Positions 6,078 to 6,243 of a DNA stretch of 36,016 nucleotides are shown one piece after another. The first letter of the stretch is position 1. Each line of letters opens with the position of its first letter. The notes under the pieces are model-generated. The model was given only the letters and a program-made list of their open reading frames with translations, ran no database searches and was not told the origin of the DNA. The stretch lies in sequence record PV223880.1. One strand, 5' to 3'. The translations under genes and the position numbers were made by a program. The stretch is from Escherichia phage T7.

Positions 6078-6110
6078 ACTGGCTCACCTTCGGGTGGGCC
6101 TTTCTGCGTT
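6078..6110 (+). terminator. TE: Early terminator TE (rho-independent, for host RNAP)
   Basis: GC hairpin ggctcaccttcgggtgggcc followed by tttctgcgttt directly after ligase stop. Confidence 0.85.
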
Positions 6111-6123
6111 TATAAGGAGACAC

Positions 6124-6146
6124 TTTAACGACTCACTAAAGGAGGT
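6124..6146 (+). promoter_or_regulatory. phi1.5: T7 RNAP promoter phi1.5 with altered upstream AT-rich positions (-17 to -14) at a deletion junction
   Basis: tttaacgactcactaaaggaggt: -13 to +6 match a class II promoter, -17..-14 read ttta instead of taat. Confidence 0.7.
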
Positions 6147-6153
6147 ACACACC

Positions 6154-6243
6154 ATGATGTACTTAATGCCATTACTCATCGTCATTGTAGGATGCCTTGC
6201 GCTCCACTGTAGCGATGATGATATGCCAGATGGTCACGCTTAA
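6154..6243 (+). CDS. 1.5: gene 1.5 protein (29 aa)
   Basis: ATG 6154 after ggaggt RBS; MMYLMPLLIVIVGCLALHCSDDDMPDGHA*. Confidence 0.8.
   Translation: MMYLMPLLIVIVGCLALHCSDDDMPDGHA

What the first reader, a model, noticed from the sequence alone, without database searches (positions are those of the whole stretch)
6110..6160. Gene 1.4 is deleted and the deletion reaches into the -17 to -14 region of promoter phi1.5
The TE terminator is followed by ...tataaggagacacttta and then directly acgactcactaaaggaggtacacacc-ATG (gene 1.5). The 156-bp offset change equals the recalled size of gene 1.4. The promoter keeps -13 to +6, but the upstream AT-rich positions now read ttta rather than taat, which could weaken phi1.5.
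Basis: partly seen in the sequence, partly recalled or inferred. Interest (0 to 1): 0.5.

Follow-up and report, generated by a model that had tools for sequence, protein, structure and literature searches.

The report
Engineered gene 1.4 deletion clipping φ1.5
The window is a published, laboratory-made, genome-reduced phage T7 ("T7-B" chassis); its gene 1.4 was removed on purpose, one base out of register, which replaces the upstream four bases of the neighbouring T7 promoter φ1.5. This is real and probably weakens that promoter, but it is an ordinary engineering by-product.

Summary
Against T7 NC_001604 the window lacks exactly 156 bp (ref 7609–7764). TE and the gene 1.4 ribosome-binding site are joined at 6127|6128 to φ1.5 position −13. 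φ1.5 −17..−14 now reads TTTA instead of TAAT; −13..+6 and gene 1.5 are untouched.

This is not a natural variant. The window is a complete 36,016-bp T7 genome. It equals the deposited recombinants T7-B-J and T7-B-GJ minus their lysin cassettes, so it is the T7-B chassis of Zhang et al. 2025 (mBio, PMC12153263). Their Table S2 lists gp1.4 as 7,609–7,764, and their recombineering arms end and start at the window junction.

The true ORF is 7608–7763. The listed numbers match the 39,938-bp T7 numbering of the CiPGr study they cite. Applying such coordinates to NC_001604 reproduces five window junctions exactly. The stop codon of 1.4 is φ1.5 −17..−15, so any whole-ORF deletion alters the promoter; the offset adds the loss of T(−14).

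Published variant data suggest φ1.5 keeps roughly 4–20% of its in vitro activity. This is inferred, not measured. Consequences look small: three upstream T7 promoters and φ1.6 are intact, and T7-B has near-wild-type plaques and burst size. Novelty: already known. Interest: low.

The parts
4994..6073 (+). Gene 1.3 (DNA ligase), intact. It forms the left context of the junction.
   Evidence: ORF list; annotation of PV223881 and NC_001604.
6081..6111 (+). Early terminator TE: 8-bp stem GGCTCACC/GGTGGGCC, TTCG loop and T-rich tail. Identical to wild type.
   Evidence: Alignment A1; fold −15.4 kcal/mol, z −3.2; NC_001604 marks TE at 7588, which is window 6107. The simple terminator scan missed it because the T tract is interrupted.
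6114..6127 (+). Orphaned gene 1.4 ribosome-binding site (AAGGAG, 6114–6119) plus spacer and the retained A of the 1.4 ATG (6127). No start codon follows.
6127..6128 (.). Deletion junction: ref 7608 joined to ref 7765, 156 bp missing (7609–7764), zero microhomology. It equals the ends of the published 40-nt recombineering arms.
   Evidence: Table S2 and Table S6 of PMC12153263.
6124..6146 (+). Clipped class II T7 promoter φ1.5, −17..+6 = TTTAACGACTCACTAAAGGAGGT, +1 at 6141. −17..−14 is replaced by TTTA; −13..+6 is wild type.
6154..6243 (+). Gene 1.5 (29 aa), intact with its own ribosome-binding site.
6241..6263 (+). Intact promoter φ1.6, 117 bp downstream of φ1.5. It gives redundant class II transcription of everything from gene 1.6 onward.

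Best explanation
The window is the synthetic, genome-reduced T7 chassis 'T7-B' (Zhang et al. 2025, mBio 16:e03582-24).

How the deletion was made (shown). Gene 1.4 was removed on a BAC-cloned genome segment by two-round Red/ccdB recombineering with 40-nt homology arms. The segments were then reassembled and rebooted into phage.

Why it is off by one (inferred). The deleted interval, 7,609–7,764, is labelled as NC_001604 numbering. It is in fact the position of gene 1.4 in the 39,938-bp T7 numbering used by the CiPGr study from which the nonessential regions were taken. That genome has an extra A near ref 1897. Applied to NC_001604-type sequence, every deletion downstream of that base lands one base to the right.

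Effect on the sequence (shown). At this locus the A of the 1.4 ATG stays. The stop codon TAA, which is φ1.5 −17..−15, and the next base T(−14) go. The AT-rich upstream element of φ1.5 changes from TAATA to TTTAA.

Effect on function (inferred). This element is the part of the promoter bound by the N-terminal AT-rich recognition loop of T7 RNA polymerase. The element stays fully A/T and the specificity-loop core and initiation region (−12..+6) are intact, so φ1.5 should still work but bind polymerase less well. I estimate roughly 4–20% of wild-type φ1.5 activity in vitro. The phage barely notices for two reasons. Polymerase started at φ1.1A, φ1.1B and φ1.3 is expected to read through TE into gene 1.5 (established T7 biology, from my own knowledge). 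φ1.6 lies 117 bp further on.
For: Identity of the genome
- The window has the 160-bp terminal repeat at both ends and seven deletions totalling 3,921 bp.
- It is base-for-base T7-B-J (PV223883) minus an 829-bp PT7-lyJDSS3 cassette. It is also T7-B-GJ (PV223882) minus 1,587-bp and 829-bp cassettes.
- The paper describes T7-B as a 36.0-kb, 9.8%-reduced chassis with gp1.4 deleted seamlessly, and as the parent of T7-B-G, -J and -GJ.
- Table S1 gives T7-B as PV223880.

Design of the deletion
- Table S2 lists 1257–2737, 7609–7764, 8198–8733, 11268–11558, 13279–14297, 16484–16821 and 20109–20208. All seven equal the window's deletions, allowing sliding within microhomology.
- Primer Amp-ccdB-gp1.4-F ends ...GGAGACACTTTA. 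The arm of primer -R is the reverse complement of ACGACTCACTAAAGG....

The offset
- NC_001604 has gene 1.4 at 7608–7763. MZ375233, in 39,938-bp numbering, has it at 7609–7764.
- The extra A lies at ref ~1897.
- CiPGr clones delete ref 7608–7763 exactly, giving junction TTTT|ACGAC. About 60 MZ3752xx/OL9647xx records match the junction query at 98.2% in one piece, and the three clones I read in full carry that junction.
- Applying the five CiPGr-derived coordinates to NC_001604 reproduces the window junctions with no difference. Applying them to the 39,938-bp genome leaves a one-base mismatch at each.
- Reference 32 of the mBio paper is the CiPGr paper.

Promoter effect
- A(−15) and T(−14) are invariant in all 17 T7 promoters, and A(−16) is present in 16 of 17.
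- A conservation score falls from 33.3 to 19.8 bits, below the weakest natural promoter (φ4.7, 25.9).
- In Komura 2018 (wild type ≈169), −16T scores 114.5 and −15T scores 115.7.
- −14A was measured only in double mutants and comes out at about 0.37–0.48 of wild type.
- CTAAT scores 40.8, and G/C substitutions score 7–26.
- The only measured TTTA-prefix variant, TTTAACGACTCACGAAAGG, scores 0.99, which implies a factor of about 0.04 after allowing for −4G and −2A.
- An AT-for-AT swap is tolerated and a GC swap is not.

Phenotype
- T7-B plaques are about wild-type size. Burst size is 197±9 against 224±9.
Against: - No measurement exists of transcription from this junction. The 4–20% figure combines single-barcode in vitro data on a class III consensus promoter, and it spans a five-fold range between the multiplicative estimate and the one direct analogue.
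- The mBio paper never mentions φ1.5 or a coordinate offset, so the cause of the +1 shift is my inference. The CiPGr supplementary tables were not available to confirm that these numbers were copied.
- PV223880 itself is not in the searchable collection, so identity with T7-B rests on its three derivatives and on the paper's tables.
- The extra base that distinguishes 39,937- from 39,938-type T7 lies inside the window's first deletion. The numbering type of the physical parent therefore cannot be read from the window.
Confidence: 0.93

Rival explanations
1. A spontaneous deletion in a natural or laboratory T7 stock, of the classical kind that arises by recombination between short direct repeats.
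For: T7 readily loses nonessential early DNA. Two other junctions in this genome (0.3–0.7 and 4.2–4.7) sit in imperfect direct repeats. In the CiPGr lineage, deletions at those two loci match the undesigned large-fragment class that paper describes.
Against: There is zero microhomology at the 1.4 junction. The interval is the ORF length shifted by one base. It matches a published deletion table and published primer arms. It co-occurs with six other listed deletions and is found only in the T7-B family of records.
Confidence: 0.01
2. The genome descends physically from a CiPGr clone with the exact ORF deletion (junction TTTT|ACGAC) and later acquired a T>A point mutation at φ1.5 −14.
For: The two junctions differ by a single base. 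About 60 CiPGr-type records carry the 1.4 deletion.
Against: The same one-base displacement occurs at the 1.7, 4.2–4.7 and 5.3 junctions, and as a one-base length difference at the 0.3–0.7 junction. This rival would need five independent junction-adjacent mutations. The SNP backgrounds differ completely between the window and the CiPGr clones. The published arms specify the A.
Confidence: 0.01
3. The designers shifted the deletion on purpose to disable φ1.5, for example to quieten the locus before inserting cargo.
For: The gp1.4 locus was later used as an insertion site and gave the lowest reporter expression.
Against: The paper calls the deletions seamless removal of nonessential genes and never mentions φ1.5. 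The +1 shift is systematic across loci where no promoter is involved. A deliberate knockout would more likely remove the −12..−5 core.
Confidence: 0.03
4. The junction is a sequence-record artefact: the deposited sequence was built from the design rather than from reads, and the real phage differs.
For: The junctions equal a coordinate list applied to NC_001604 exactly.
Against: The genome carries about 20 SNPs and small changes relative to NC_001604, shared with T7-B-J and, over the part compared, T7-B-GJ. That indicates real sequence data. The paper reports PCR, Sanger and whole-genome confirmation. The recombineering arms would physically generate this junction.
Confidence: 0.02

Closest known systems
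T7-B chassis phage (PV223880) and its derivatives T7-B-G, -GJ and -J (PV223881–3), Zhang et al. 2025, mBio 16:e03582-24
   Same: The junction, all seven deletions and all SNPs are identical. The window equals the derivatives minus their lysin cassettes. The deletion table and primer arms match.
   Different: Nothing detected. PV223880 itself could not be fetched for a direct comparison.
CiPGr genome-reduced T7 clones (MZ375237–MZ375294, OL964739/40), Yuan et al. 2022, NAR 50:13183
   Same: Gene 1.4 is deleted with the same 156-bp size. The same set of loci is removed (1.4, 1.7, 3.8, 4.2–4.7, 5.3, 7.7), and φ1.5 also loses −16 and −15.
   Different: CiPGr removes ref 7608–7763 exactly, giving junction TTTT|ACGAC and keeping T(−14). 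The window removes 7609–7764, giving TTTA|ACGAC. The SNP background, the method (CRISPR plus 50-bp donors) and the 3.8 and 7.7 deletion endpoints all differ.
Wild-type T7 class II promoter φ1.5 (NC_001604, +1 at 7778)
   Same: −13..+6 is identical, at the same distance from gene 1.5.
   Different: −17..−14 reads TTTA instead of TAAT. The upstream neighbour is now TE and the 1.4 ribosome-binding site instead of the end of gene 1.4.
Natural weak T7 promoter φ4.7 (CTATT CGACTCACTATA GGAGAT)
   Same: It also carries T at −16 and departs from the TAATA consensus upstream while remaining a functional class II promoter.
   Different: φ4.7 keeps A(−15) and T(−14), which no natural T7 promoter changes. 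The window's φ1.5 changes both.

Membership tests
T7 RNA polymerase promoter (class II, φ1.5) | Specificity-loop recognition core −12..−5 (CGACTCAC) | tested here: met
   Identical to wild type.
T7 RNA polymerase promoter (class II, φ1.5) | Unwinding and initiation region −4..+6 (TAAAGGAGGT) at the native distance from gene 1.5 | tested here: met
   Identical to wild type; +1 at window 6141, gene 1.5 ATG at 6154.
T7 RNA polymerase promoter (class II, φ1.5) | Upstream AT-rich element −17..−13 = TAATA (A−15 and T−14 invariant in all 17 T7 promoters) | tested here: not met
   The window reads TTTAA. Only −17 and −13 match, although the element remains 5/5 A/T.
T7 RNA polymerase promoter (class II, φ1.5) | Actual initiation by T7 RNA polymerase at +1 | not testable with these tools
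   Needs run-off transcription or transcription-start mapping. Analogue data suggest reduced but non-zero activity.
T7-B synthetic chassis (Zhang et al. 2025) | Seven deletions at the coordinates of Table S2, with gp19.5 retained | tested here: met
   gp19.5 is present: there is no deletion near ref 39430.
T7-B synthetic chassis (Zhang et al. 2025) | gp1.4 junction equals the ends of the published 40-nt homology arms | tested here: met
   Table S6 primers against the window sequence.
T7-B synthetic chassis (Zhang et al. 2025) | Parent of T7-B-J and T7-B-GJ (identical apart from the inserted cassettes) | tested here: met
   Exact prefix and suffix identity.
T7-B synthetic chassis (Zhang et al. 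2025) | Identity to GenBank PV223880 | not testable with these tools
   The record is absent from the searchable phage collection.
CiPGr genome-reduced T7 clones (Yuan et al. 2022) | Exact ORF deletion of gene 1.4 (ref 7608–7763, junction CACTTTT|ACGACTC) | tested here: not met
   The window has CACTTTA|ACGACTC.
Spontaneous repeat-mediated T7 deletion | Short direct repeat or microhomology at the deletion endpoints | tested here: not met
   0 bp of microhomology; the junction cannot slide.

The most novel reading that the evidence does not exclude
The one-base offset makes φ1.5 close to a null promoter in vivo. T7-B would then be an unplanned demonstration that φ1.5 is dispensable. The clipped promoter might also contribute to the modest burst-size loss, or to the very low cargo expression reported at the gp1.4 locus. 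This would be a design caveat for users of the distributed T7-B segments, not new biology.
Probability: 0.3. Interest if true: 0.15.

Novelty: already known. Interest (0 to 1): 0.1.

Why it matters
This has little bearing on phage biology. Gene 1.4 was already known to be nonessential, and class II promoters are redundant.

It has modest practical value. The T7-B chassis and its BAC segments are distributed for phage engineering. The source paper does not mention that its "seamless" deletions are one base out of register with the NC_001604 annotation. One consequence is a φ1.5 promoter altered at two positions that no natural T7 promoter varies. Another is a frameshifted rather than in-frame Ocr–gp0.7 junction. 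Anyone modelling T7-B transcription, or placing cargo at the gp1.4 locus, should know this.

For the scan itself, the window should be treated as an engineered construct. Its other deletions are not natural variation.

Tried and rejected
- Natural or spontaneous deletion: rejected because there is no microhomology and the junction matches published primers.
- Descent from CiPGr clones plus a point mutation: rejected because of the systematic +1 shift at five junctions and a different SNP background.
- Looked for the window's 3.8 (291-bp) and 7.7 (100-bp) junctions in other records, to trace them to CiPGr clones. Exact matches occur only in the T7-B family.
- Tried to read the CiPGr supplementary tables to confirm the source of the coordinates. 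They are not held.
- Searched the literature by accession number: no hits. The source paper was found through the lysin names instead.
- Looked for a second quantitative T7 promoter mutagenesis data set in the library: not found. Imburgio et al. 2000, which I recall only from memory, was not found and is not used as evidence.
- The simple terminator scan did not flag TE, so folding and reference identity were used.
- A 49-aa GTG ORF (6094–6243), in frame with gene 1.5 and starting inside the TE hairpin, was considered as a possible new fusion. It was dismissed because it has no ribosome-binding site and its start lies within the stem.

Full report
**1. The observation**

The sequence at 6100–6160 reads ctttctgcgtttataaggagacacttta|acgactcactaaaggaggtacacaccATGATG. 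In an alignment with NC_001604 the window has a single 156-bp gap at this point, and everything on either side is identical.

A base-by-base comparison places the gap at ref 7609–7764. There is no microhomology, so the junction 6127|6128 is unambiguous. NC_001604 annotates TE at 7588, gene 1.4 at 7608–7763, the φ1.5 start at 7778 and gene 1.5 at 7791–7880.

- Gene 1.4 is gone.
- φ1.5 keeps −13..+6.
- −17..−14 reads TTTA instead of TAAT.

Two details refine the picture. The TAA stop codon of gene 1.4 is φ1.5 −17..−15. And the deleted interval is the ORF shifted one base to the right, so the A of the ATG survives (window 6127) and T(−14) is lost.

**2. What the window is**

The window carries the 160-bp T7 terminal repeat at both ends. 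It differs from NC_001604 by seven deletions (3,921 bp) and about 20 small changes.

The exact junction occurs in only three database records, PV223881–3. These are 'Mutant Escherichia phage T7 clone recombinant T7-B-G / -GJ / -J', which carry the endolysin genes LysGH15 and LyJDSS3. The window is base-for-base T7-B-J minus an 829-bp cassette. It is also T7-B-GJ minus 1,587-bp and 829-bp cassettes.

The source paper is Zhang et al. 2025, mBio 16:e03582-24 (PMC12153263), found through the lysin names. It describes these steps:
- T7 was split into BAC-cloned segments.
- gp1.4, gp1.7, gp3.8, gp4.3–4.7, gp5.3, gp7.7 and gp19.5 were deleted 'seamlessly' by Red/ccdB recombineering with 40-nt arms; the nonessential gp0.4–0.7 region was removed by leaving segment F2 out of the assembly.
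- The segments were reassembled and rebooted.
- T7-B was chosen as the chassis: 36.0 kb, 9.8% reduction, with gp19.5 restored.

Supplementary Table S1 gives T7-B as PV223880. Table S2 lists the deleted regions as 1257–2737, 7609–7764, 8198–8733, 11268–11558, 13279–14297, 16484–16821, 20109–20208 and 39430–39628. The first seven are exactly the window's deletions once sliding within 1–3 bp of microhomology is allowed. The Table S6 primer arms for gp1.4 end at ...GGAGACACTTTA and begin at ACGACTCACTAAAGG.... That is the window junction.

**3. Why the deletion is one base out of register**

Table S2 is headed 'NC_001604', yet NC_001604 has gene 1.4 at 7608–7763. The nonessential-gene list is credited to Yuan et al. 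2022 (CiPGr, PMC9825161). That study's T7 records use 39,938-bp numbering, and MZ375233 annotates gene 1.4 at 7609–7764 and gene 5.3 from 16484. The extra base is an A near ref 1897.

CiPGr clones delete these intervals in ref coordinates:

| Region | CiPGr clones | Window |
|---|---|---|
| 1.4 | 7608–7763 | 7609–7764 |
| 1.7 | 8197–8732 | 8198–8733 (equivalent by sliding to 8199–8734) |
| 4.2–4.7 | 13278–14296 | 13279–14297 |
| 5.3 | 16483–16820 | 16484–16821 |
| 0.3–0.7 | 1257–2736 | 1257–2737 (equivalent by sliding to 1259–2739) |

The window's versions are each +1. The first deletion has the same start and an end at +1, as expected when the extra base lies inside it.

I tested this by simulation. 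Applying the 39,938-numbered coordinates to the NC_001604 sequence reproduces all five window junctions with no difference. Applying them to the 39,938-bp genome leaves a one-base mismatch at every junction.

I had made this inference before reading Table S2, and the table then showed the predicted numbers. The remaining gap is that the CiPGr supplementary tables were not available. The copying route is therefore inferred, while the +1 displacement itself is shown.

**4. Expected effect on φ1.5**

Across the 17 annotated T7 promoters, A(−15) and T(−14) never vary, A(−16) varies once (φ4.7) and T(−17) varies three times. The window's φ1.5 departs at −16, −15 and −14, but only by A↔T swaps. A conservation-based score falls from 33.3 to 19.8 bits. 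The CiPGr junction scores 25.1 and the weakest natural promoter, φ4.7, scores 25.9. That score measures conservation, not activity.

For activity I used the in vitro data of Komura et al. 2018 (PMC5937735, S2 File). Wild type averages about 169 RNA/DNA reads.

| Variant | Score | Fraction of wild type |
|---|---|---|
| −16 A>T | 114.5 | 0.68 |
| −15 A>T | 115.7 | 0.68 |
| CAAAA (−17C, −14A) | 70.9 | −17C alone scores 149 |
| TAAAT (−14A, −13T) | 94.2 and 47.5 | −13T alone scores 192 |
| CTAAT (four upstream changes) | 40.8 | 0.24 |
| G/C substitutions at −16, −15, −14 | 7–26 | about 0.04–0.15 |

−14 T>A appears only in double mutants. Those imply a factor of about 0.37–0.48.

Multiplying the factors gives about 0.2 for TTTA and about 0.46 for the CiPGr TTTT. 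The only measured variant with the TTTA prefix is TTTAACGACTCACGAAAGG, which is the window's φ1.5 plus −4 T>G. It scored 0.99. Dividing out −4G (about 0.185) and −2A (about 0.88) implies a factor of about 0.04.

A separate oligonucleotide study found that TAATA→TATAT had little effect while CGCGG nearly abolished activity. That fits recognition of −17..−13 by the AT-rich recognition loop, as that paper's introduction summarises.

My estimate is that φ1.5 in T7-B retains roughly 4–20% of wild-type in vitro activity. This is inference from analogues in a class III consensus context, each with a single barcode.

**5. Expected consequences for the phage**

Gene 1.5 and its ribosome-binding site are intact. 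Three T7 promoters lie upstream (φ1.1A, φ1.1B, φ1.3) and φ1.6 lies 117 bp downstream, all intact in the window. From my own knowledge of T7 biology, T7 RNA polymerase does not stop at TE, so gene 1.5 should still be transcribed.

T7-B, with all seven deletions combined, makes plaques of about wild-type size. Its burst size is 197±9 against 224±9.

The paper never mentions φ1.5. It does report that reporters inserted at the gp1.4 locus gave the lowest expression of eight loci. PT7-luciferase was 294-fold below the gp10 locus, and PJ23119-luciferase was undetectable. Those cassettes had their own promoters, so this is not a measure of φ1.5.

**6. Rival explanations**

- A spontaneous deletion is excluded by the lack of microhomology and the match to published primers.
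- Descent from a CiPGr clone plus a T>A mutation would need five independent junction-adjacent changes, and the SNP backgrounds differ.
- Deliberate promoter knockout is unsupported, because the shift is systematic across loci.
- A design-derived sequence record is unlikely given the shared SNPs and the reported PCR, Sanger and whole-genome confirmation.

**7. Verdict**

The finding is accurate and its interpretation holds. It describes a deliberate deletion in a published synthetic phage. The only point the source does not mention is that a coordinate offset makes the 'seamless' deletions one base out of register. Here that costs φ1.5 its invariant T(−14), on top of the unavoidable loss of −16 and −15.

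Novelty: already known. Interest: low, limited to a practical caveat for users of the chassis.

Noticed in passing
window 1229–1320 (junction at about 1256–1259): The 0.3–0.7 deletion in the window is one base longer than in the CiPGr clone T7_20L. There the junction gives an in-frame 231-aa Ocr–gp0.7 C-terminal fusion. In the window, Ocr (gp0.3) is frameshifted after about 111 aa and ends in a 20-aa unrelated tail (131 aa). The gp0.7 C-terminal part is out of frame. The T7-B-family records annotate no CDS here.
   Followed up: partly
window 6562, 9096, 10815, 13001, 16288 (all other deletion junctions): Every engineered deletion in this genome matches Table S2 of PMC12153263. Where a comparison is possible, each is displaced +1 relative to the CiPGr deletions: 1.7 leaves an 11-codon stub, 5.3 keeps the A of its ATG, and 4.2–4.7 keeps the left copy of an imperfect repeat. 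The 7.7 deletion is exactly 100 bp (the 'cassette-100' size) and serves as the cargo site in T7-B-G.
   Followed up: yes
window 10790–10840 (ref 13279–14297 deleted): The 4.2–4.7 deletion removes promoters φ4.3 and φ4.7 entirely and truncates gene 4.2. The chassis therefore has 14 intact T7 promoters plus the clipped φ1.5, instead of 17.
   Followed up: partly
window 9080–9105 (ref 11268–11558 deleted): The 3.8 deletion removes the native ribosome-binding site of gene 4A (AGGAGGGA). A near-identical AGGAGGCA from inside gene 3.8 takes its place at the same distance from the 4A start. This junction lies between imperfect direct repeats, so it looks like an originally spontaneous deletion that was later copied by design.
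   Followed up: no
window 31333–31337, 31054, 23969–23970 and about 17 other SNPs: About 20 substitutions relative to NC_001604 are not shared with the CiPGr lineage. They include a 5-bp block and an A>G in gene 17 (tail fibre), and several changes in the region from gene 10 to gene 12. They are presumably the laboratory stock's background or changes acquired during cloning or PCR.
   Followed up: no
Supplement of PMC12153263, Table S7 (not window sequence): The 80-nt oligo HA-gp1.4, as printed, is the left homology arm repeated twice rather than left arm plus right arm. This is probably a typographical error, because the genome and the Table S6 primers show the expected right arm.
   Followed up: no
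window 6094–6243 (+): A 49-aa GTG-initiated ORF runs in frame into gene 1.5 across the junction. Its start lies inside the TE hairpin stem and has no ribosome-binding site, so it was judged not meaningful.
   Followed up: partly
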